From an uncultured Chloroflexia bacterium (GTDB lineage Bacteria > Chloroflexota > Limnocylindria > Limnocylindrales > CSP1-4): a DNA stretch of 64,000 nt. Shown here piece after piece: positions 5,301 through 45,460 of the stretch. Within the stretch, counting starts at the first letter, position 1. Each line of letters opens with the position of its first letter. The notes under the pieces were generated by a model. It saw only the letters and a program-made list of their open reading frames with translations. It was not told the origin of the DNA and made no database searches. The position numbers were made by a program, and so were the translations under genes. Location: positions 1,894 to 65,893 of the forward strand of contig CAVYGJ010000001.1 of the NCBI GenBank assembly GCA_963768035.1, read 5' to 3'.

Positions 5301-7048
5301 ATGGAGGAGACGAACGGATGGGCGGTGCTCGACGAGATCCTGTCCCGTCCGGTCCGCACCTGGCTGGAGGAGCGGTTCTGGCGGCCGATCGAGGCCCAGG
5401 CCACGCTCGAGGCGCTGCGCGACGACCCTGACTTCCTCGCCGACCCCGGGCACCCACCCGGCGATGTTCGCCGACCACGGCGTCGTCCACGCCCGCGACG
5501 TGGCCGTCGGGCTGGTCCGACTGCTCGACACGATCGACGGGGTGCTGCTCCCGGCGCCGGCCGCCCGCGCGACGCGAGTTCGTCGCGGCACTCGGCGTCG
5601 CGACCGCGTACCTCCACGACATCGGCATGGTCGACATGACGACGACCGGGCGACGCGTCCACCCGCAGTACGCGGCCCACGCGGCGTTCGGGCCGGAGAT
5701 CGGCCCGCTCGTCGACCACCTGCTCGCGCCGGGACCGGTCCGGGCGCGCCTCGACGACGTCGCCGCAGCGGGCGCCGTTCGCGGTGCCGCTCGACGTCGT
5801 CGTTCGAGAGATGCTCAGCCTGTCGGTCACCCACAGCAAGTCGGCGGTCCCGGCGGCCGTGCTCGACGATCGGGCCGCGCTCCGACGCCTCCTCCAGCGC
5901 GTGGTGTTCACCACGCTCGACGCCCATCGCGCATCGCCGTGGCAGCCGTCCGTCGCGGACACGTCGCCGATGCCCGCCGAGGCGAACGCGGACCGCTACG
6001 ACGGATCCCTCGGCGTCGTTCGCCTGGCTGACGGCGCGCGAGCGGCCCGCAGGCCGAGCTCGCCGACGACGTCGTGGACGCGATGCGGGCCCTGCGCGCC
6101 GCGGACGTGCTCCGGCAGCGCGGGACCGTCCTCCGGACGTCCGGCGGCTTCGAGGTGTGCATGGACGCCGAGACGGCGCGCGCCGTGTGCACGCTGCGGC
6201 CCGCGACGGGCGACGCGGCCTACGTGATCGTCTACGACGACGAGCGGGGCGCCGGCGAGGCCAACATCCGGGTCGCGTTCGTGACGCCCCGGGGGCACCT
6301 CCGGATCGCGTTCAATCGCGGGTCGCTTCGGCAGCGCCGAGGCCACCCGCCGCGCCGCGTCGAGCGTCGCCGACGTCGTGGTGGACATCCAGGCCGACGT
6401 CATCCCGTCCTTCAGCGGCAGCTCGTACGGCGGCGGCCTGCCCGCCCCTTCGCGTGCGATCGAGGACGTGCAGATCCAGCTGGAGTGCCCCGACGACCAC
6501 CACGCGTTCGCGCGAGGAGGTCGCCGCGATCGTCGCCCGGCTCGAGCCGTCGCTCGCACGGCGGCTCGTGACCGTCGCCAACGTCGAGGGTGCGGCGCCC
6601 GACGAGCGCCGCCGCTTCTACGAGTCCGAGCCCGTCGATCCGTTCGGCGCCGATGCCGACGAGCTCGTCCGGCGGCTCGCCGAGCACGGGGTGGAGACGT
6701 CGGGGATCGACCGCGTCGACGGCCTTCTCCGAGGTGGGGCGCGCGACCCTCCGGCCGGGCGAGGTGCTCGTCGCCCAGGGCTCGCCGCCGTCGTTCGTGT
6801 ACGTCCCGACCGGCCGCGGCCTGACCGTGCTGCCACACGGCGGCTACGCGCCGTCGCCGCTGCCGCCGTGGGTGCCCGTGGGCACGACGGGCGTGATCCG
6901 GCGGGCCGAGCGCAACAGCGAGATCGTCGCCGAGCGCGAGGTCGGCGTGATCGCGATCCCGGGCGACCTCTACGCCCGCGCCTGGCTGCGCCCGCTGCGG
7001 GTGGACGAGCTCGCGACGCGCCTCCGGCCGCCGGTCGCATCCGCGTGA
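5301..7048 (+). pseudogene. HD-domain phosphohydrolase-like protein with C-terminal cyclic-nucleotide-binding-like domain; at least 8 frame breaks
   Basis: Nine consecutive fragments in rotating frames read as one protein. Examples are 'MEETNGWAVLDEILSRP', 'HPAMFADHGVVHARDVAVGLV', 'EFVAALGVATAYLHDIGMVDMT' (the H...HD motif), 'PLDVVVREMLSLSVTHSKS', 'ELADDVVDAMRALRAADVLRQRG', 'VVDIQADVIPSF', 'EEVAAIVARLEPSL' and 'FSEVGRATLRPGEVLVAQGSPPSFVYV'. Frames run 0,1,2,0,1,2,0,1,2. Length is 1748 nt, i.e. 3n+2, consistent with 8 inserted bases. Confidence 0.6.
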
Positions 7049-7050
7049 CG

Positions 7051-10045
7051 ATGTCGACGATCGAGCGCGTGGTCGCGCTCCAGCGGGTGGACCTGTTCGC
7101 CGACGTGCCGGGCCGGACGCTCGCCGCCGTCGCCCGCCGCGCCAGCCGAGGTCGAGGTTCGCCGCCGGCACGCTCGTCATCGCCGAGGGCGCCGTCGAGG
7201 ACCACCTGTTCGCGGTCGTGGCGGGCCGCCTCCGGGTCCATCACGACGACGTGACCGTGGTCGACCTCGGGCCGGGCTCGACCGTCGGGGAGCTGGCGGC
7301 CCTCGTGCCCGAGCCGCGGGCCGCGTCGGTGACGGCGCTCGAGCCGACGATGCTCCTGCGCATCGACAAGCCCGTGCTCGACGAGCTGCTCGCGGATCGG
7401 CCCGCTGCTCGCGAGCCGGATCATCGCCGCGCTCGTCGCGATGGTGCGCGAGCGGCCACGGCCCGGGACGCCGACCCCGCCCTCGTGACGGCACCCGACC
7501 GCTCCGGCGCGGCGGTCCGCTGGCTGATCGCCCAGACGCTCGTCTTCGGCGCGATGGCGGCGCTGCTCGGGATCGTCGCCAACGCGATGTTCCTCGACGC
7601 CTACGGCTCCGCGTGGCTGCCGGCGACCTACATCGCGATCGGGGCGGCGGGGTTCCTGCTCTCGGGCGCGATCGCGCGCGCCGCGCGTCGGTTCGACCTC
7701 CTCGGCATCGCGGTCGTCGTCCTCGGGGCCGCCGCCGTCGCGATCGGCGCCTCCTGGCTGATCGCGGCCGGTGGCGACGGCGCGTGGGTCTCGGCGCCCC
7801 TCCTGGTGCTGTTCCCGATCCTCATCCAGCTCGGGTTCGTGTTCGTCGGCGCGCAGGCCGGCCGGCTGCTGGACATCGCCGGGATCAAGGCGAGCTTCCC
7901 GAGGATCGCCGCCGGGTTCTCGGTCGGCGCGGTGCTCGGCGGGCTGCTCGGTGGCCAGCTGGTGAGCGTGCTCGGCCGGACGGAGGACCTGCTGCTGGCG
8001 ACCGCCATCGCCCAGGCCGCGTTCGCGGGCCTCGTGTGGGCGACGGGTCGCCGGTACCCGGCCCAGCTCCGCCTCGCCGGCCGGTCCACGAGCCGCGCAG
8101 CGTCGCGCGACCCGACGACGCCCGTCCTCCCGCGCGCTCGCTCCGGCGGCTGTTCGGGAGCCGGTTCGTCGTCCTGATCGTCGTCTACCAGGTCCTGTCC
8201 GCGGTGGGCAGCCAGCTCGCCGACTACCTCGTCTTCGACCGCGCGACGGCGCAGTACCCCGACGCGGCGGACCTCGCCGGGCTATCTCGCGGGCTACACC
8301 GCCGTCATGAACGTCGTGAGCATCGCGTTCCTGTTCCTCGTCGCGGGACCGCTGCTCCGGCGGTATCGGGCTGCGCATGGGGATCGCCGCCAACCCGCTC
8401 GTGCTGACGGTCTTCGCCGTCGCCATGATCGCGGTCCTGGGCGTGGGTGGCGGCGCGTCGTTCGCCCTCCTCGCGACCGTGTCGGCCGCCCGCATCGCCG
8501 ACATCGCCCTGACCGACGGCACGACGCGGACCTCGATCAACGCGCTGTACCAGGTCCTCCCGGAGCGCACCCGGCTGTCGGTCCAGACGGCGGTCGAGGG
8601 CATGGGCGTCCCGGTCGCCATCGGGATCTCGGGCGTGCTGATCCTCGTCCTCAACGCCCTCCCGTTCGCGCTCGCCGCGACGATCGCCGTGACGACGATC
8701 GTGTGCGCGGTCTGGACGTGGTCGGGGTTCCGTCTCTACCGCGAGTACGGCCCGGCGCTCGCCCGCGTGCTGCGACGCGAGCCGCTCCTCGACACGAACG
8801 CCGTCCTCGAGGCAGGCCCGGGCGACGCCGCCATCGCCCGGGGGTTGCTGGCGAGCGGCTCGGCGCGCACGGCCCGCCTGGGCATGGACCTGCTGGCATC
8901 GATGACGTCACCCGCGATGGCCGCCGAGCTCGCGCATGCTCGCGCGTGACCCGCTCCCGGACGTGCGGATGGCGGCGCTCGGCGGGCTCGTCGGGGCGGG
9001 CGACGAGGGCGCGCGACGTCGACTGGCCTACGAGGTGCGGGTCGGGGCCGCGGATGCCGACCCCGCGGCACGCATGCGGGCGGCGCGGTTCATGGGGTTG
9101 CTCTCGCCCGTCGAGCGGGCAGCCGCAGAGCGCCTGCTCGTCGATGCCGACCCGGACGTCAGGTCTGCGGCCCTGGACGCCGTCCGTCATGGCGACGTCG
9201 CGGCCGTTGCGCCCGCGATCGCGGCGCTCGACGACCCGTCAACGCTGGGCGCCGCCTCGGGCGCGATCGAGCGGCTCGGGGACGCGGTTCTCGGGCCGCT
9301 GGCGGACGCGCTCGGCTCGGCGGGCACGCCGGCGCACCCGCGGGTGCTGCGCCTCGTCCGCTCGGCGGCGACTGCGTCGGCGGGTCGTGACGAGCTCCTG
9401 CGCCGGTACGTCGGGCATCGCGACCGCGAGCTCGGCCTCGCGGTGATCGAGCGGCTCGTCGCGGCCGACCCTGCGCCGGAGGCGACGGCCGTGGCGCTCG
9501 ATGCCGTGCTGGCCGCCGACATCCGTCATGCCGCGGGCGTCCTGGCTGCGATGGCCGCGTTCGACGGGGACACGGATCGGGGAGCCGGCGATGGACCCGT
9601 CGAGCGGGCCCTGGCGGACGAGCTGGACCTGCTCCGCGCGCGCGTCCGCGCGGGCTTGCTGGTCTTGGACGGCTCGGCTCGGCTCGGGTCGGCGCTCGTC
9701 GAGGTCGGCGCGGGCGGGCCGAACGCCTCGCTTGCGCGCGAGGCGCTCGAGGTCGTGCTGGGGGCCGCTCAGGCGCGGCTCGTCCTGGCGCTGCTCGAGC
9801 CCGGCCTTGCGGCGGCCGACCGGCTGGCGCGATTCCGGACACCCGCGAGCGAGCCCGCGGGCGTGGAGGCCGTGCTGCGCGATCTTGTCGAGGACGCGGA
9901 CGACCGCTGGCGGTCGCCCTGGCTCCGGGCTTGCGCGATCCACGCGGCACGCGCGAGGGGCGCGCTCCACCGGATCGACCTGTTCACGACGCGGGCGCTC
10001 GGCGATCCGATCGTGGACGAGGAGCTGTCGATCTCCGGGGCGTGA
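7051..10045 (+). pseudogene. cNMP-binding domain / MFS- or TLC-like polytopic membrane domain / HEAT-repeat fusion protein; about 7-10 frame breaks
   Basis: ATG 7051 lies 2 nt after the previous stop. Fragments include 'MSTIERVVALQRVDLFADVPGRTLAAVA', 'AAGTLVIAEGAVEDHLFAVVAGRLRVHHDD...GELAAL' (cNMP fold), long hydrophobic runs in 7218..8177, the 7613 frame, the 8307 frame and 8377..8949, and then 8936..10045 with repeated 'DPDVRSAALDAV'-type HEAT motifs. Confidence 0.6.
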
Positions 10046-37709: not shown

Positions 37710-39482
37710 TCACCCGCCGTTGGGCACGATCTCGTCGGGGAGTGAGCTCGCTGCCGGTGGATCGACCGCGGCGACGGTCACGCGCACGATTGCGGGCGCA
37801 TTGCCGAGCGCCGAGAGCGGCCCGTACACCGGTGATACGACGTCGATCACGAGCAGGTACTCGCCGGGCACGAACAGGCGTGTCCAGCGCGAGCCGCACG
37901 ACCTCGCCGTCGGGCGTCCGCACCTCTTCGGGTGACAGCAGCGCCGACGCGGGTGGTGGAATGGGGACATCGCTCGTCGCAGTCCACATCGCGACAACAT
38001 GCGCGGGCCACCTGTTCACGAGTCCAACGACCTCCTCCTCCCAGGGTTGCGTACCCACATCGAGGACGCGCACCGTCACCTCGGCCGGCATCCCGGCGAC
38101 GATGAAGAGGCTCGCAGGGGCGCCGTACGCGACTGCGATGGATCCCGCGACCTTGACGAACACGGGAGCGAGGAGCGCCTGGGTCGCGGCGTCGTATGCC
38201 TCACCGGTGGGGGTGTGGAGCGTCGGCACGAGGCGGTACAGGCCGGCCGCGACCGGGAAGGCGGTTTCGACCGAGAGACCCTTCGCGTGACGCTTCATGG
38301 GCGCGAGGTCGACAACGGCTCCGATCCGTTCGGGAACAACGAGGTCGACCGTCGGAGCCTCCGTAGACACGAAGGAATCGCCCGGCCCCGCGCCCGCGGC
38401 TGGCACCGTCTGGAGGGGAGGGTCGAGCAGCACGGGATCCCAGCGCAGGCCGATCTGCGCGCCCTTGGGCACGGCTGAAACGCTGCCGCCCGCGAGCGGC
38501 AGGCTGAGCGTCGTCGTCGTGGCCGCGATCGGGAGCGTGCCGAGGCTGAGCTCGCCGAACCGGAGCGAGGCGTTCGCGAGCGAGGGCTCCGCCGGTACGG
38601 CGACCGACGGGCCGCCGATCCAGCCCGTCGCACTCCCTCGGAGATCGCCCGCAGTGACGCCGCGCGAGACGAGCGAGCGGTAGAAGCCCGACGTCGCGTT
38701 GTCCGGGTCGAGCCGCGACGTGTACCCCGGCGAGCGGACGCTCTTGAAGCTCATCGTGTGGCCGTTCGCGCTCGGGCGAGCGGTTCCAGATCGGACGTGA
38801 TCGAGCGCGTTCGTCGTGAGCAGCTGGCGGACGTACCAGGCGGGTCCCATGTGCGCCTCGGCGACGACGGCCTTCGCGCCGGCGCGGATGAACCCGGCGG
38901 CGTAGTTGTCCACGCGCTGGGTCGCGATGTCGAGGCCGCCCTCGGGGAGACCGGCTCGGTGTTGCCGCTGGCGTAGCAGAGGTGGTTGAGGAGCACGACC
39001 GCGTTGTCCGCGAGCCGGACGTTGTCGACCGACGCCTCGCCGAAGTACTGGTGGGAGCTGTCGTCAGCGCCCGCGACGGGGTTCAGCCCGAAGCCGTTCT
39101 GGGAGGGCGGGTAGAGCGCGTCGCGGTAGCGGGACGGCCACCCGTTGCCGTGGCCCAGGTAGACGACGATCGAGGCGTCGGTGATGGCCGCCTTGACCGC
39201 CGGCCACGTCGCGTTGGGCGAGTAGACCTTGACGACCTGGGCGCCGGCGGCGCGCGCCACGCGGGCGGCCTCGTTGGCGAGCGCCTTGTAGTTCGCGGTG
39301 ATGCCGCCGACGGGGCCGACGATCAGGACGACCTTGGGGATCCGTGTCCCGGCTGCGACCGGCGGGATGCCGCCCAGCGCAACGAGGACCCCGACCACCA
39401 GCGCGACGAGCGTCGTGCGCAGGTGCGTACTCGTGGTTCGCCCCAGGCGATGCCCTGCGGCGAACGGGTCGTGGAGTGTCAC
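37710..39482 (-). pseudogene. secreted protein with a caspase-fold-like (clan CD-like) His/Cys dyad; two compensating frame breaks
   Basis: AAAGGAG lies 5 nt before GTG 39482, followed by a TM/signal 'LVALVVGVLVALGGIPPVAAG'. 'VVYLGHGNGW' and 'VVLLNHLCYASGN' resemble the H-G / C dyad of clan CD peptidases. The protein continues in the 36691..38913 frame ('GLPEGGLDIATQRVDNYAAGFIRAGAKAVVAEAHMG...') and returns to the first frame at about 37878 ('VPGEYLLVIDVVSPVYG...'). One base is missing near 38953 and one is extra near 37878. Confidence 0.5.
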
Positions 39483-39592
39483 GGTGGCTCCTTTGAGCCC
39501 GGACACCGGGATCGGGGTGGCCCCGGTGTCCGGGCACGGAGAACTGCGAGTGACCGGGCCGGCGCGCGATGCGGCCGGCCCGGTCTTCATGG

Positions 39593-42500
39593 TCAGGGGA
39601 GGGTGAGGATCGGGAACGGGGTGGCGTTCAGCCAGGCCGACGAGACGATCGTCCCGTCACTGGCCCGGAGGCGGAAGTAGTACGAGGTGTTCCGGCTGAG
39701 GCCGGTGACGCTGAGCGTGGTTGCCGTGGCCGCCACGTTGGTCGTCGTGATGCCGTTGGCGAAGGTCGAGCTCGCCGACCGCTGGATCGTGAACCCGGTC
39801 ACGTTGGCCGTGTTCGCCGTCCAGGTGAGGTTGACGGTGCGCTGACCACCCGCGATCGGCACGTTGACTCGCCGTGAGGGTGGTCGGGACGGCGGGCAGG
39901 ATCGGCACGGTCGCCGAGGCGACGTTGCTGTACGCCGACTGGACGATCGCGTTGATCGCGGTCACCCGGTAGGAGTACGTCGTGACGGTGGCGCCAGCAG
40001 CGATGGTCGAGTCCGTGAGGGTCACGGTCGCGCTGCCGCTCGTGCGGGGCGGGAGGTTCGCTCCGAGCTGGGCGAAGGTCACGCCGTCGGTGGACCGCTC
40101 CACGATGAACCCCGTCTCGTTGTTCGCATTGTCACGGAAGGAGAGGTTCATCACCGGCCCGGTCGCGCCGGCGGCCAGGGTCGCGGTCATGAGCGTCGGG
40201 GCCGCCGGCGGTGCCGGGACGACGACGCTGACGATGTTGGACGGGAGCGAGTTGCCGATCGCGTTGGTCGCGATGACCTGGTACCTGAAGGTCGCTGCGG
40301 ACGTGAGCCCGTTGGCGACCGTGTCGACGAAGGTCTTGATGGTTGGGTCGGCGATCGTGCTGACCGTGGCAAAGGCGGCGTTGCCCAGCGCACGCTGGAC
40401 CACGTAGCCCGTCGCGTTCGTCCCTGCCTGGGCCCAGGTCAGGGTGACCTTCGGGCCGAAGGAGAGGACGGCGGCGAGCGCGGTCGGAGCCTTGGGCGGG
40501 TTGAGGACCGTGATGGGATCCGACAGCGAGAACACGGTTGCGGTCGAATACCCGGTGATCGCCGAGTCGGTCGAGCCGACCGTGTTGCGGGCCATGACGC
40601 GGTACTGGTAGTCGGTGAACGGGTCGTAGGTCGGGTCGACCAGCGACCGGTCCTGGTGGATGTTCGGATCAGCCAGCGGCGAGTCGATGGTCCCGACGTC
40701 GGTCCACGTCGTCGTGCCGTTGATCGCCCGCTGGACCACGAAGGACGTCTCGGTGATCGACTGGTCCTTGAAGGTCAGCGTGTGGGTCGCCTTGTCGAAC
40801 ACGAGCGTGTCGGCCTTGAGCGGCGGCAGTGCATAGAGCACCGGCCGCATCATGTCCATCTCCTCATGGCTGAGGATGTGGCAGTGATAGACGTACTCCC
40901 AACCGAAGTTGACGAGCGCGTTGCTCACGGTCGAGACGTTGCCCTTCGGGTCGACGATGAGCCCGTTGGGGTCAAGGTCGGCGCCGAGCGGCATCATCGG
41001 GCTCAGCGGCCGGATGCTGTTCGGAACCTCGAACGGAAGTGTCGGGGTGATCGGCCGCAGGGCGACGATCGTGTCCTCGAGCGGGCTGACGCGGACGGTC
41101 TCCTTCCAGCCGAGCTCGGAGGGCTCGGTGGGAATGATGATGTTGTCCCAGGTGACCCGGTTCAGGATCTGAACGTTGAACAGGTGGAAGTGGATCGGGT
41201 GGGTGTCCACGCCGTTGTGGGTGATCTTCCAGATCTGGGTCCCGTCACTGGCCGAGCTGATGGCCTGGACATTGACGTCGCCACTTCGGAAGGTTGGTCC
41301 CGTCGATGACCTCCGTCGGAGGCGCGATGTACGGGTAGAGCAGGATGTTCTGCCCCGCCGGCGTCGCGGGAACCGCCTCGAGGCCGAGGTTGGCCGTCAT
41401 CCGGCCGAACTCGTCGAAGGCGGCCGAGTTCATCTCGTCGTGGAGCGCCTTCGGTTCGATCTTGACTGACAGCTGCGGACTCGAGCCCTTGAGGTTGTCG
41501 AACCGGAACTGCTGTCCGCCCTGCTGGTTGATCCGCGCCATGCCCGTCGCACTTGTTGGTGCCGGTCGGCTTGGTGCAGTCGCCACTCGAGACGAAGGAC
41601 TTGCCGTACGCGGAGTTGTAGGCGGCCTGCCCGACGATGATCGGGTCCTGGCTGGACTCGAAGACGCCGGAGCCGTCCGCGTGATGCTTGAAGGCATTGT
41701 TGAGGGTCGTCAGGTTGAACGCCGTCGGCGGCGTGGTTGCCGCGACCTTGACCTGCATGATGGTCCGCGTGTTCGGGCCGTAGCCTGGCAGGACCACGCC
41801 GGCACCCGTGTCCGGGCCGCCGGTGAAGTAGTCGTAGCGTCGCGACGCGGGCAGGGAACGCGGCGGGCGCGTCGTTGTAGAGGATCAGGGTCTTGCCCGC
41901 GTACTTTGAGAAGTCGACGACCACGTCGCCGCGCTCGGCCGGGGCCAGGAGCAGCGAGTGCTTGTCGACGTTCCCGACGTCGAAGCGGGTCGGGTCGGTG
42001 ATCCACGTCGTCGGCTGGGGCGGAACGACCGTCGGGGCCGGCAGGAAGCCGCCCTCGGAGCCGATCTGGATCCAGCTCGGACCCTTGGGGCTCAGGGTCT
42101 CGTCCGGCGTCGGGGCGACGTTGATGTCGGTCTGGGCTGCGGCGACCTCGGACGCCTTGAGGGCGACCTCGGTACCGGTGCTGATTATGCCGACGTCGAG
42201 TCAGCGACGTACCAGGACAGGTTCCAGAAGCGGTCGTTGGCCGCGTTCAGGATCCGGAAGCGGTACGTCTTCGGGTCGACCGTGGTGGTCGGGATAGGCC
42301 GTGCCGTTGACGATCGGGGTGTCGTTGAACTGCTCCATGCCGACGGAGATGTTCGGCGTGCCGGGGATGACTCGCGGCTCGCAGAACGGATCGACCTGGT
42401 ACTGCCAGGTGGCAGGCACGTCGAGGTTGCAGGCTGTCGCCAGCGGCGTCGTGAAGTCGTCGGCGGCCTCAGGGCTGCCGATGACGCCGATGACGCCATC

Positions 42501-45215
42501 GGGGCCCTTCGGGTCCATGTTGTAGTACGGGTTGGCGATCGGGCCATTGACCGGCTTGGCCGGCGGCCAGAACCACGGGCCGTACATCCAGCGGCCGTAG
42601 GCGCTCATGCCCAGACGGGTCGCTGGGGTTCTGGGCGGGCATGTAGACGTGGTGGTACCAGAGGTCGCCGAAGCCGCCCCACTTGGAGCCGTCCCACGTT
42701 GGGTCCTGCCCGCGCGAGCTGAGTCAGCTGACGGGACGAAGGTGCGGTCCTGGATGACGAGCGGTGTCCCGACGCCGAGGCCGGCAAGCGCGCCACCGGT
42801 ACCGATGAGCTTCTGTTCGGTCGCGTCGGTGAGGACGATAGCCGGCTGCCTCGCCCGCGTACACGTTGAGGCGCGTGATGCCCCAGGCGTGGTCGTGGTA
42901 GAACATCAGCCGCGCTGACTGCTGGTTGGTGTAGTAGAACGTCTGGCAGCCGTCCGTCGGCGGCGGTGCAATCGGGCACGCCGGGGCGATGCGCGGAGCC
43001 ATGTCGGGAACGTTCTCGACGCTCACGCCCTGCGGGCCACGGAGTGGTCTCGTTGGCGGGGGTGATCCACTGGTGCGGGGTGCCGTCGCTGATCCACGGG
43101 GTGACACCGCCGTGGAGGTGCAACGTCGCGCGGTTCTGCGGTGAAGCACATGTCGCGCATCGACGCGTCGTAGGACTTCTCCGTGCACATCGGGTTGCGG
43201 GTCAGGTCGGTGACCGTGCCCTGGTTCGCGTTCGGGTCGGGCATGGCGGCCGGGGTGTCAGCCCGAGCCCATGATCGACGTGTCGGTCGGGAGGAACAGG
43301 TCGCCGGCGGCGCCGTTCGGAAGCAGGTTGTAGAAGACGATCCGGACCGCCGAGTCCTTGGTCGCGACGATGGTCGGGCCGAGGTAGTGCGGGTTGTCGA
43401 CGCCGACGGCCTGGGTGACGCCGTCGGGCATCAGGACCGGGCGTCGTCGTGCCGTCGAGGTTGTCCTGGACGAGCGGGACCTGCGTCGCCGGGGACGACG
43501 CTGGTCGACAGCTGGACGTACTCGCGGAGCAGCGTGCCGGCAGCGGGCAGGCTCGAGCTCATGCGCTCGCGATGCTGCACGACCGCGATGACGTAGTAGT
43601 CGGCGCTCGGGAACGTGGTCGTGTCGGGTACGGCGAGCGGGATGTACTGGCCGAGGTTGTTCGCCCCGGCCGCGGTGAGGCCGGGCAGGGTGTCGACGAA
43701 CTTCGTGATGCCGCCCGGCGTGATGTAGCCGGAGCCCGCGGTCAGGAAGATGAGGGCGACGATCGCGACGATCGGACGAGGGCGAGGAGGACGCGCCAGT
43801 GCCCGGCCGGTGTCGGCGAACGCGACGGTCCGGAGCGGACGTGTAGCCGGCGCCGAACGTGTCGACGACGACGGACAGGATCTTGAGGGTCGAATCGGCC
43901 CGCTGCCTCGACGAAGCCGGCGGGCGGGTTGATCGGGTCGAACTGGGTGCCGTCGCGAACGACGACGCCGGGGCGCGGCCGCAGTAGCCGGAGCCGGGGT
44001 TGTCGATGACGATGCCCGGTGACGGCCAGCAGGCCCATGTCAGGAGCGCTCTGTGCAATCGGGGTACGGGGCCGCGCACGTGGCATGGCCCTGTGCCTGG
44101 ATGCCCGCGGGGTCATCCGGCAGGTCGAAGTCCACGGTCGGGAAGCTGTAGGCGGCTCCTTCGACCGAGAGCGTGACGCCGTCGACGCCGCCGAGCGCGT
44201 GCGCGGTCGCGTCGGTCGTCGCCCCGCCACCGGTGATGGTGACGGACGGCGCGGTGTAGCCGCTGCCGGCCTGGTCGACCGCGATGCCGGTGACCGCGCC
44301 GGACGTCTGGACGTCGGCGCTCGCTGTAGCGCCGCTGCCGGCGCCCGTGATCGCGACGGTCGCTGACGCGTAGTCGTGGCCGGGGTTGGTGATGGTCAGG
44401 CCGGTGACGGCGCCGTTGGCGCCGACGGTCGCCTCGGCGGTCGCGCCCGCGCCCGCGGCCGGGACCGCTCGGCGGCTGGATCGTCGCGCCGAACGAATAG
44501 GTCCTGCCCGGCGATCGTGCGGGAGCGCGTGTCGTGTCGATCGGGCTGGTCGGCGCAGCGGCGACGGGATAGCGCCACCAGGTCCGTGCCGGTCAGGTCG
44601 ACCGGGATGCCCTGCCCGTAGAAGGCGATCTGGTCGCCGAGCTGGACGGGCGCCGAGACGGGCCACGTATGCACGCCATCGGCCTCGACCGGGACCGTCA
44701 GCGGCCCGCTGTCGAACACGATGTCGAACTGGCCGATGGTCCCCGTCGGGCGCAGCACGTACGCGTTGAAGGTGTTGCCCGGCGACGGCAGCCCGGCTGC
44801 CGGCAGGTTCTCGGTGAAGGTCTGGAAGCCCGTGATGCGTCCCGGCAGGCAGGGCGTTCGGGAGCACCACGAGGACGGTGCCCTGGCCCGGCGTGTTGCT
44901 GCCGGTGTTGATCGTGTCGTCACTCGCGAACTCGCGCGCCGTGACGGCGTTCCCGACGGCGATCGGCGTGACCGGCAGCGATCCCGCGGTGATCGTCACC
45001 GTGGCGTCGGGCTGGGTCAGCGGGCTGTTCGCCCAGTTGGGATACGGGCCGAAGTAGTGCGGGACCTTGGTCTGGTCGACCGGGCTGAGCGGCGCAGCGA
45101 CCGGCGCGCGATCCGCACCCCCGGATGGTGCCGGTGCCGACCGGGCAATCCCCGGCGCGGCCCCCGTCAAGACCAGGACGAACGCGGCGAGCGTCGCCAT
45201 GAGCTTTCTTCTCAT
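39593..45215 (-). pseudogene. giant secreted multicopper oxidase (signal peptide, GSGY repeats, 3 cupredoxin domains, 4 FN3); at least 15 frame breaks
   Basis: GGAGGAAGGA precedes ATG 45215, followed by the signal 'MRRKLMATLAAFVLVLTGAAPGIARS'. All four Cu motifs are present: 'HLHGG' (about 43110), 'FYHDHAWG' (about 42880-42903), 'HPIHFH' (about 41184-41201) and 'HCHILSHEEMDMM' (40848-40886). There are 4-5 copies of a '..GSGYT.P.V.I.GGG'-type repeat in 43.6-44.4 kb and four FN3-like modules in 39.6-40.8 kb. The pieces are spread over all three minus frames. Length is 5623 nt (3n+1). Confidence 0.7.
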
Positions 45216-45460
45216 CGTCGATCCTTCCTCCGTCCGGATCTTCCGGCTCGGTCTTCCCCCGCGCGCAAGTGACGCCACCGGCTCACCGCGCGGTCGATCG
45301 GGGCATGGGCGACGTGCCCGCTACCCCAGCAGGCATCGACCGTAGTCGCCTCGATGGCGACCGCCATCGGTGGACGCCCGGAGGGCACTACGGGATCGCG
45401 AGGTCGGTACCGTCTCCGTACCCCGGGCGCAATGCGTACTCGCCTCTGCACGGGCACGGA

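What the first reader, a model, noticed from the sequence alone, without database searches (positions are those of the whole stretch)
39593..45215. A roughly 1,870-aa secreted multicopper oxidase with GSGY tandem repeats and four C-terminal FN3 modules, the most heavily broken gene in the window
A single minus-strand locus starts with a strong RBS and signal peptide at 45215. It contains all four copper-ligand motifs of a three-domain laccase-like oxidase (HLHGG, YHDHAWG, HPIHFH, HCHILSHEEMDMM).

It also carries two large additions:
- An N-terminal region with 4-5 copies of a roughly 35-aa repeat centred on G-S-G-Y-(T/I)-x-P, for example 'DQAGSGYTAPSVTITGGG', 'DNPGSGY', 'DTFGAGYTSAP' and 'TAGSGYITPG'.
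- Four FN3-like modules at the C-terminus.

An oxidase of this size and architecture suggests a cell-surface-tethered enzyme acting on a polymeric or extracellular substrate. It carries at least 15 frame switches yet keeps its motifs.

The next gene downstream on the same strand (110-bp gap) is another broken secreted protein with a His/Cys dyad.
Basis: partly seen in the sequence, partly recalled or inferred. Interest (0 to 1): 0.6.

Follow-up and report, generated by a model that had tools for sequence, protein, structure and literature searches.

The report
Giant secreted copper oxidase, falsely broken
This is one gene for a very large secreted copper-containing oxidase of a widespread, already recognised family, and its 27 apparent breaks are almost certainly errors in the genome assembly rather than real gene decay.

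Summary
Window 45215-39593 (minus strand) is a single locus of about 1,870 codons. It has an RBS, a signal peptide, a conserved VPHYFGPYPNWANSP motif, a roughly 180-aa beta-sandwich insert, six GxGY repeats, a CotA-like multicopper oxidase core with all four copper motifs in order, and four FN3 modules.

It aligns end to end with intact proteins of 1,858-1,872 aa (best 82% identity). Same-genus genomes carry intact orthologues.

It is interrupted by 27 frame shifts, but these look like consensus errors:
- 22 are clean single-base insertions, and they are not enriched in homopolymers.
- There is no genuine in-frame stop.
- 464 of 475 family-invariant residues are kept.
- The whole 15-contig, 77%-"complete" MAG carries about 1,090 such shifts, including in a pyruvate dehydrogenase E1-like gene. 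A relative has none in 124 kb of coding sequence.

The family has more than 5,000 members across phyla. It includes cultured actinobacteria and Geobacteraceae, and I read it as the OmpB/MofA type of extracellular oxidase.

The GxGY repeat is real and has no Pfam, NCBIfam or PDB match. It is very common (15,178 clusters) and is shared with phage virion proteins.

Overall this is an ordinary gene with low interest.

The parts
45223..45231 (-). Ribosome-binding site GGAGGAAGG, 8 nt upstream of the ATG
   Evidence: Read directly from the sequence
45138..45215 (-). Start codon and Sec-type signal peptide MRRKLMATLAAFVLVLTGAAPGIARS
   Evidence: Aligned with the N-termini of intact homologues
45021..45065 (-). 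Family-conserved N-terminal motif VPHYFGPYPNWANSP
   Evidence: Invariant V-P-H-Y-x-G-P in 51 orthologous N-modules. Coordinates
44467..44972 (-). Roughly 180-aa all-beta insert domain (VTPIAVGN...RTYSFGATIQPPS). It is present only in the roughly 450-aa class of N-modules and carries 2 frame shifts (44836, 44571)
   Evidence: In the AF2 model of the orthologous domain it is a beta-sandwich, with only weak jelly-roll/TNF-like PDB matches
43677..44453 (-). Six GxGY repeats of about 35-45 aa (motifs GHDY, GSGY, GAAY, GSGY, GAGY, GSGY), running into GGITKFVDTLPGL. The first three (44453-44052) are read in one unbroken frame
   Evidence: PHROGs hits of the window's own fragment, E 4e-13. No Pfam, NCBIfam or PDB sequence match
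40797..43676 (-). Expanded CotA/PhsA-like three-domain multicopper oxidase core of about 960 aa
   Evidence: Pfam Cu-oxidase_2, 43.4 bits against a cut-off of 20.4. The orthologue matches CotA 1gsk in six collinear blocks and NCBIfam PhsA/CueO weakly. 464 of 475 family-invariant residues are kept
43106..43120 (-). Copper motif 1, HLHGG (HxH)
   Evidence: Aligned to CotA HLHGG
42880..42900 (-). Copper motif 2, YHDHAWG (HxH)
41184..41201 (-). Copper motif 3, HPIHFH (HxxHxH)
40848..40886 (-). Copper motif 4, HCHILSHEEMDMM (HCHxxxHxxxxM, with an axial Met as in CotA)
39596..40796 (-). Four FN3-like modules. One frame shift at 39868 precedes the last module
   Evidence: Pfam fn3, E 3.4e-6 and 4.1e-8. 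Alignments
39593..39595 (-). Stop codon TGA
39485..39592 (-). 110-nt spacer with two strong GC-rich hairpins and no T-run, followed by AAGGAG and the GTG (39482) of the next gene
   Evidence: RNA fold -73.7 kcal/mol, z = -6.8 against 200 shuffles
39868..44836 (-). 27 apparent frame shifts at about 44836, 44571, 44468, 44050, 44016, 43975, 43902, 43829, 43806, 43772, 43486, 43440, 43259, 43138, 43035, 42997, 42954, 42836, 42721, 42711, 42611, 42292, 42182, 41839, 41544, 41282 and 39868
   Evidence: Frameshift-aware alignment to the intact protein P0277. 22 are clean one-base insertions.

Best explanation
The locus is one gene for a secreted multicopper oxidase of about 1,870 aa, belonging to the widespread large-oxidase family I identify with OmpB/MofA.

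How it most likely works (inferred from the family, not shown here):
- The Sec signal peptide exports the protein.
- The CotA-like core takes single electrons from an extracellular substrate at a type-1 copper, which has an axial Met in HCHILSHEEMDMM.
- The trinuclear copper cluster reduces O2 to water.
- The N-terminal beta-sandwich insert, the six GxGY repeats and the four C-terminal FN3 modules are non-catalytic. They probably hold the enzyme on the cell envelope or on an insoluble substrate such as a mineral, a metal oxide or polymeric phenolics.

In the organism the gene is most likely intact. The 27 frame shifts are single-base consensus errors of a long-read metagenome assembly, which carries such errors genome-wide and in local hot spots.
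For: One gene, known family:
- It aligns end to end (45215-39596) with the intact 1,858-aa protein P0277 at 82% identity.
- Same-genus genomes G010, G024, G007 and G018 have uninterrupted orthologues in synteny.
- More than 5,000 homologues exist with 72-84% core identity across phyla.
- More than 588 loci occur in species genomes, including Cellulomonas, Terrabacter, Streptomyces, Arthrobacter, Geomonas and Citrifermentans.
- The closest solved structure is CotA, matched in six collinear blocks.
- OmpB/MofA are described as extracellular MCOs with FN3 (PMC5566968). MofA homologues are reported in Actinobacteria and deltaproteobacteria (10.1101/2022.11.10.515945).

Frame shifts are artefacts:
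- 22 of 27 shifts are a clean extra base with no residue lost.
- Only 8 of those 22 adjoin an identical base, against a 43% background.
- There is no genuine in-frame stop. The single '*' abuts a junction.
- 464 of 475 residues invariant across six distant relatives are kept, and most of the 11 changes are conservative or lie next to a junction.
- A codon-usage Viterbi scan finds about 1,090 same-strand frame switches without a stop on all 15 contigs. It finds 0 in 124 kb of G010 coding sequence and 0 in the G018 locus.
- The excess of different-frame junctions is 56 per 100 kb, against 3 per 100 kb for same-frame (nonsense-like) junctions.
- Guide-based alignment of 25 neighbouring genes gives 22 shifts and no clean stop.
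- Hot spots include a pyruvate dehydrogenase E1-like gene with 8 breaks.
- Within the gene itself, 1.4 kb (41282-39868) has no shift, so the damage does not follow the gene as a unit.
- The MAG has 15 contigs but only 77% marker completeness.
- A same-genus genome is a long-read 'MFD' MAG (L088 = G018:C5).
Against: - The artefact reading therefore rests on indirect statistics.
- The shift density here (about 4.8 per kb) is about 6 times that of neighbouring genes (0.73 per kb), and I cannot say why this stretch is a hot spot. Low coverage or strain heterogeneity are guesses.
- Background genes show balanced +1 and -1 classes (11:11), whereas this gene is strongly insertion-biased. This is unexplained.
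- The substrate and physiological role are not known for any actinobacterial or Chloroflexota member.
- Direct comparison with GSU1394 (OmpB) or MofA was not possible.
- The mofB/mofC/SCO1 neighbours described for OmpB/MofA clusters are absent.
Confidence: 0.85

Rival explanations
1. The gene is a genuine, heavily decayed pseudogene. The organism has lost this oxidase, and frame shifts then accumulated under relaxed selection.
For: - Shift density is about 6 times that of neighbouring genes.
- Frame shifts are over-dispersed in the genome (index of dispersion 1.44). Earlier notes of this scan also describe them as clustered by gene.
Against: - There are 27 shifts and no true nonsense codon.
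- 97.7% of family-invariant residues are kept.
- The protein is 82% identical to an intact homologue along its whole length.
- The spectrum is dominated by non-homopolymer single-base insertions. By general knowledge this is the opposite of the deletion-biased, repeat-associated natural indel spectrum of bacteria.
- A 1.4-kb stretch of the same gene is clean.
- The same kind of damage hits a central-metabolism gene and about 1,090 sites genome-wide.
Confidence: 0.08
2. The breaks are still artefacts, but they arise from a collapsed consensus of several co-existing strain variants of a fast-evolving surface-protein gene, not from plain low-coverage basecalling error.
For: - The error hot spot is local.
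- The family's accessory modules vary strongly between close relatives: FN3 x3 or x4, Big_3_5 or MBG_2 tails, and presence or absence of the insert domain.
Against: - Most shifts lie in the extremely conserved core (43500-41280), not in the variable modules.
- No data on coverage or variants were available.
Confidence: 0.05
3. The frame changes are decoded biologically, by programmed frameshifting, transcript editing or an unusual genetic code.
For: None beyond the preserved protein sequence across frames.
Against: - The 27 sites share no motif, slippery sequence or structure.
- Orthologues in the same genus are plain open frames.
- The same shifts occur in unrelated genes across the genome.
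Confidence: 0.01

Closest known systems
OmpB (GSU1394) / OmpC of Geobacter sulfurreducens and MofA of Leptothrix discophora: large extracellular multicopper proteins
   Same: - All are large secreted multicopper oxidases with C-terminal FN3 modules, as described in PMC5566968.
- Geobacteraceae proteins from Geomonas and Citrifermentans, and one Geobacter hydrogenophilus protein, share 61-75% identity with the core of this family.
- The four copper motifs are the same.
   Different: - The Geobacteraceae members examined have only about 31 aa between the VPHYFG motif and the core, so they lack the GxGY repeats and the insert domain.
- The mofB/mofC/SCO1-type neighbours of the OmpB/MofA clusters are not found here. 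Two-component systems are the recurrent neighbours instead.
- The host belongs to a genus whose relative is recorded as an 'uncultured Chloroflexia bacterium', not a proteobacterium.
- A direct alignment to GSU1394 or MofA was not possible with the tools.
CotA laccase of Bacillus subtilis (PDB 1gsk), bilirubin oxidase and phenoxazinone synthase PhsA
   Same: - Same three-cupredoxin-domain core and the same order of copper ligands, including HCHIL(E/S)HE(D/E).DMMRP.
- Best PDB sequence match, E 1.5e-29, in six collinear blocks.
- Weak NCBIfam PhsA/CueO hits.
   Different: - The core is about 350 aa longer through large insertions between the conserved blocks.
- It also carries about 640 aa of N-terminal and about 400 aa of C-terminal non-catalytic modules.
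- NCBIfam scores are far below the equivalog cut-offs (116 against 950).
GxGY-type repeats of phage virion proteins (PHROGs 701, 19630, 708, 438, 460, 5342: virion structural protein, baseplate wedge, head closure, tail fibre)
   Same: - The window's own three-repeat fragment matches these families at E 4e-13 to 1e-4.
- The AF2 model of the N-module matches predicted cyanophage structural proteins at E 6.5e-9.
   Different: - Here the repeats are fused to an oxidase rather than to a virion protein.
- No function is known for the repeat in either setting.
- No Pfam, NCBIfam or PDB entry covers it.

Membership tests
Three-domain multicopper oxidase (CotA / bilirubin oxidase / PhsA clade) | Four copper-ligand motifs HxH, HxH, HxxHxH and HCHxxxHxxxxM in this order in one polypeptide | tested here: met
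   HLHGG at 43120-43106, YHDHAWG at 42900-42880, HPIHFH at 41201-41184 and HCHILSHEEMDMM at 40886-40848. All are collinear in the read-through
Three-domain multicopper oxidase (CotA / bilirubin oxidase / PhsA clade) | Profile match above the curated threshold | tested here: met
   Pfam PF07731 Cu-oxidase_2 scores 43.4 bits against a cut-off of 20.4 on the window's own unbroken 579-aa frame. PF00394 is only marginal on the orthologue
Three-domain multicopper oxidase (CotA / bilirubin oxidase / PhsA clade) | Collinear similarity to a solved member over all three domains | tested here: met
   Orthologue P0001 against CotA 1gsk: six ordered blocks covering CotA residues 101-511, E 1.5e-29. The window is 64% identical to P0001
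Three-domain multicopper oxidase (CotA / bilirubin oxidase / PhsA clade) | Copper binding and oxidase activity | not testable with these tools
   Needs the purified protein
OmpB/MofA-type large extracellular multicopper oxidase | Large secreted MCO (over 1,200 aa) with FN3 module(s) | tested here: met
   About 1,870 aa, with a signal peptide and four FN3-like modules. The family description comes from PMC5566968
OmpB/MofA-type large extracellular multicopper oxidase | Sequence homology to OmpB (GSU1394) or MofA themselves | not tested
   Neither sequence was available. The link is indirect: Geobacteraceae (Geomonas, Citrifermentans, Geobacter sp.) proteins of about 1,320 aa with an MCO core and FN3 modules are 61-75% identical in the core
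OmpB/MofA-type large extracellular multicopper oxidase | Clustered mofB (PPIase), mofC (cytochrome c) or SCO1/SenC chaperone genes | tested here: not met
   Clustering the flanking ORFs of 84 loci gives only two-component-system genes as recurrent neighbours. In the window the neighbours are NarL-type two-component systems and a clan-CD-like secreted protein
Fibronectin type III domain | Pfam fn3 match | tested here: met
   E 3.4e-6 (27.6 bits, cut-off 25) and E 4.1e-8 (33.8 bits) on window frames. Two of the four modules are recognised only by alignment and motif periodicity
Genuine pseudogene | Nonsense codons, loss of conserved residues and a natural (deletion-biased, repeat-associated) indel spectrum | tested here: not met
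   0 true stops, 464 of 475 invariant residues kept, and 22 of 27 shifts are one-base insertions outside homopolymers
Genuine pseudogene | Breaks supported by the sequencing reads | not testable with these tools

The most novel reading that the evidence does not exclude
The GxGY repeat array is an as yet undescribed, very widespread beta-hairpin repeat domain, sometimes accompanied by the 180-aa beta-sandwich insert. It has no Pfam, NCBIfam or PDB entry, yet 15,178 protein clusters match it. Bacteria and phages share it as a surface-binding module, and in this oxidase family it targets the enzyme to a cell-surface or mineral ligand. A weaker alternative is that the local error hot spot marks real population heterogeneity at this surface-enzyme gene.
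Probability: 0.4. Interest if true: 0.4.

Novelty: new member of a known kind. Interest (0 to 1): 0.15.

Why it matters
There are three points of practical value.

1. It is a warning. This MAG carries about 1,000 single-base indel errors, so 'broken genes' in it, this one included, should not be read as pseudogenes. Gene calls for it need frameshift-aware annotation or polishing.

2. It places the gene in a huge, strongly conserved but functionally almost unstudied family of giant extracellular copper oxidases. These occur in soil Actinomycetota, Chloroflexota and Desulfobacterota. The only studied relatives, OmpB and MofA, are linked to Fe and Mn redox chemistry.

3. It points out that the N-terminal GxGY repeat, common in bacterial giant proteins and phage virion proteins, still lacks any domain description or solved structure.

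None of this is specific to, or surprising for, this window.

Tried and rejected
- Plain tblastn of the orthologue against the region gave over-extended HSPs in wrong frames. I replaced it with my own frameshift-aware dynamic programming.
- A linear-gap version mis-aligned the N-terminal repeats. An affine version with closer guides fixed this.
- I tried to use rpoB and rpoC as essential-gene yardsticks for frame shifts. rpoB is absent from the MAG and only the C-terminal end of rpoC is present.
- The DNA of the closest intact homologue, P0277, was not retrievable. The exact inserted bases could therefore not be pinned down by nucleotide alignment.
- Homopolymer explanation of the shifts: rejected.
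- |GC skew| as a predictor of shift density: no correlation. GC content correlates only weakly (rho 0.13).
- Pfam, NCBIfam and PDB sequence searches for the repeat and for the downstream 766-aa orthologue found nothing.
- Foldseek against PDB for both models found nothing below E 1e-3.
- The isolated three-repeat fragment folds with only moderate confidence (pLDDT 68.6), against over 90 within the whole N-module.
- A literature search for 'GSGY' found nothing relevant.
- Programmed frameshifting or an alternative code: rejected, because there is no shared motif and the orthologues are plain ORFs.

Full report
**What is there**

On the minus strand, an ATG at 45215 lies 8 nt after GGAGGAAGG. 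It opens a frame that begins with a typical signal peptide. No single frame stays open: stop-to-stop pieces in all three minus-strand frames carry recognisable protein sequence.

A same-genus search of whole genomes found uninterrupted orthologues. I read these out as 1,733 aa from the MTRKL start (G010), 1,578 aa (G024), and stop-to-stop frames of about 2,224 and 2,627 codons (G007, G018).

A database search with the read-through found intact full-length proteins of 1,858-1,872 aa that cover 100% of it. The best, P0277, is 80-82% identical.

My frameshift-aware alignment of P0277 to the window runs from 45215 to 39596 without a break in collinearity. It has 1,524 identities over 1,852 aligned positions and needs 27 frame shifts.

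**Anatomy**

| Element | Coordinates |
|---|---|
| Signal peptide | 45215-45138 |
| Family-invariant motif VPHYFGPYPNWANSP | 45065-45021 |
| All-beta insert domain, about 180 aa | about 44972-44467 |
| Six GxGY repeats | 44453-43677 |
| Oxidase core, about 960 aa | 43676-40797 |
| HLHGG | 43120-43106 |
| YHDHAWG | 42900-42880 |
| HPIHFH | 41201-41184 |
| HCHILSHEEMDMM | 40886-40848 |
| Four FN3-like modules | 40796-39596 |
| TGA stop | 39595-39593 |

- Pfam recognises Cu-oxidase_2 and fn3 on the window's own unbroken frames.
- The closest solved structure for the orthologue is CotA, matched in six collinear blocks that include all copper sites.
- NCBIfam gives only weak PhsA/CueO matches.
- The 110-nt spacer after the stop holds two strong hairpins (z = -6.8). 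The next gene starts at GTG 39482.

**Are the frame shifts real?**

The answer therefore rests on six indirect lines of evidence, which all agree.

1. Spectrum. 22 of the 27 shifts are a clean extra base with no residue lost, 2 are clean one-base losses, and 3 are ambiguous. The extra bases do not sit preferentially in homopolymers: 8 of 22 adjoin an identical base, against a 43% background. By general knowledge, natural bacterial indels are deletion-biased and concentrated in runs and repeats.
2. No nonsense codons. The only '*' on the aligned path abuts a junction and is a wrong-frame reading.
3. Conservation. Of 475 positions invariant among six relatives from different phyla, 464 are retained. 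Most of the 11 changes are conservative or lie next to junctions. A gene dead long enough to collect 27 independent frame shifts should have lost many more.
4. The damage is genome-wide.
   - Guide-based alignment of 25 neighbouring genes gave 22 shifts in about 30 kb and no clean stop.
   - A codon-usage Viterbi scan found about 1,090 same-strand frame switches without a stop, on all 15 contigs. It found none in 124 kb of coding sequence of relative G010 and none at the G018 locus.
   - Two other highly contiguous relatives, G020 and G024, show the same kind of damage.
   - The excess of different-frame junctions over the reference is 56 per 100 kb. The excess of same-frame, nonsense-like junctions is only 3 per 100 kb.
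5. Hot spots occur elsewhere. One is a pyruvate dehydrogenase E1-like gene with 8 breaks, and another lies in this window at 5443-8130. Within the oxidase gene, a 1.4-kb stretch (41282-39868) has no shift at all. The clustering therefore follows regions, not genes.
6. Assembly profile. The MAG has 15 contigs but only 77% marker completeness. That is the usual profile of a long-read assembly with indel errors. A same-genus genome is identifiable as a long-read 'MFD' MAG, because L088 has the contig length and position of G018:C5.

I therefore put about 0.85-0.9 on the gene being intact in the organism. Two things remain unexplained. This stretch is about 6 times richer in shifts than its neighbours, and it is insertion-biased whereas the background is balanced (11:11).

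**What the protein is**

The core is part of a very large and very conserved family.
- There are 5,979 hits in the first search, and the best 120 share 72-84% identity over 850 aa. They come from Chloroflexota, Actinomycetota, Desulfobacterota and others, and most are annotated only as 'multicopper oxidase domain-containing protein' or 'FtsP/CotA-like'.
- At least 588 loci were confirmed in species-representative genomes. They include cultured Cellulomonas, Terrabacter, Streptomyces, Kitasatospora, Arthrobacter, Georgenia, Tessaracoccus, Geomonas and Citrifermentans.
- The literature describes OmpB and OmpC of Geobacter sulfurreducens and MofA of Leptothrix as large extracellular multicopper proteins with FN3. 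They are implicated in Fe(III)/Mn oxide reduction and Mn(II) oxidation respectively (PMC5566968). MofA homologues are reported as frequent in Actinobacteria and deltaproteobacteria (10.1101/2022.11.10.515945).

I infer that this is that family. I could not align to GSU1394 or MofA directly, and the mofB/mofC/SCO1 neighbours are absent. The recurrent neighbours are NarL-type response regulator plus HisKA_3 kinase (21 of 84 loci, including this genus) and OmpR-type regulators (26 of 84).

Mechanistically the safest statement is this. The enzyme is exported and oxidises a substrate by one electron at the type-1 copper, coupled to O2 reduction. Non-catalytic modules provide attachment. The substrate is unknown.

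**The 'additions'**

The N-module comes in two classes across the family:
- about 270 aa, with 5-6 GxGY repeats;
- about 450 aa, with the extra insert domain.

The Geobacteraceae members examined have neither. C-terminal tails vary between FN3, Big_3_5 and MBG_2. These modules are therefore standard family variation.

An AlphaFold model of the closest N-module orthologue (L098) is confident: mean pLDDT 84.7, and over 90 across most of the repeat region. The repeats form long beta-hairpins.

What the repeat does and does not match:
- Foldseek finds nothing in the PDB below E 1e-3. There are only weak jelly-roll or TNF-like hits, which I attribute to the insert domain.
- Foldseek does find predicted phage structural proteins at E 6.5e-9.
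- The window's own unbroken three-repeat fragment (44453-44052) matches PHROG families of virion structural, baseplate-wedge, head-closure and tail-fibre proteins at E down to 4e-13.
- It matches nothing in Pfam, NCBIfam or PDB sequences.
- A profile of the fragment hits 15,178 protein clusters. The best are giant proteins with up to 27 repeat stretches, and six of the seven I scanned have no Pfam domain at all.

The GSGY repeat is thus real, frequent and undescribed. It is not a peculiarity of this gene.

**Verdict**

The gene is an ordinary new member of a known, though poorly characterised, oxidase family. Its striking 'brokenness' is best explained as assembly error. Interest is low.

Noticed in passing
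whole genome G000 (contigs C1-C15); in the window for example 5443-8130 (+): About 1,090 same-strand frame switches without a stop occur genome-wide (0.2-0.5 per kb of coding sequence). They are over-dispersed and their density rises with GC content. Hot spots include C2:888032-890882, C11:58490-60812, C2:904799-907577 (a pyruvate dehydrogenase E1-like gene with 8 breaks) and window 5443-8130. Any 'pseudogene' in this MAG should be treated as suspect.
   Followed up: partly
window 39485-39592 (-): Two strong GC-rich hairpins with stems of about 12-15 bp and no T-run fill the 110-nt spacer between the oxidase stop and the next gene (-73.7 kcal/mol, z = -6.8). They may be terminators or processing sites.
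   Followed up: partly
window 37710-39482 (-): The downstream secreted protein has a caspase-like His/Cys arrangement (YLGHGNGW ... LNHLCYASGN) and is also frame-shifted here. Its intact G010 orthologue (766 aa, L011:4857-7157) has no Pfam hit. Paralogues lie on C2 (about 740-742 kb), C14 and C5. It was not a recurrent neighbour of the oxidase among the 84 loci clustered.
   Followed up: partly
window 44052-44453 (-) and proteins P0127-P0276: The GxGY repeat profile hits 15,178 clusters in the 1.84-billion-protein library. The top hits are 1,000-7,000-aa proteins with 10-27 repeat stretches, and six of the seven I scanned have no Pfam domain. The repeat also builds phage virion proteins (PHROGs 701, 19630, 708, 460, 5342). 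It appears to be an undescribed domain family.
   Followed up: partly
loci L029-L108 and L011-L014 (flanks of the oxidase gene): Two-component-system genes are the only recurrent neighbours of this oxidase family. A NarL-type regulator plus HisKA_3 kinase occurs in 21 of 84 loci, including the window's genus. An OmpR-type regulator occurs in 26 of 84.
   Followed up: partly
L015 (G020:C4:80000-98000) and L012 (G024:C3:805000-823000): Two other highly contiguous same-genus assemblies also show frame switches (12 and 7 candidates in 18 kb). G020's oxidase orthologue is broken too. G010 and G018 show none. The problem looks tied to the assembly, not to the lineage.
   Followed up: no
genome G000: rpoB is not found at all, and only the last roughly 190 codons of rpoC are present, at the start of contig C15. 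The MAG is therefore genuinely incomplete as well as error-laden.
   Followed up: no
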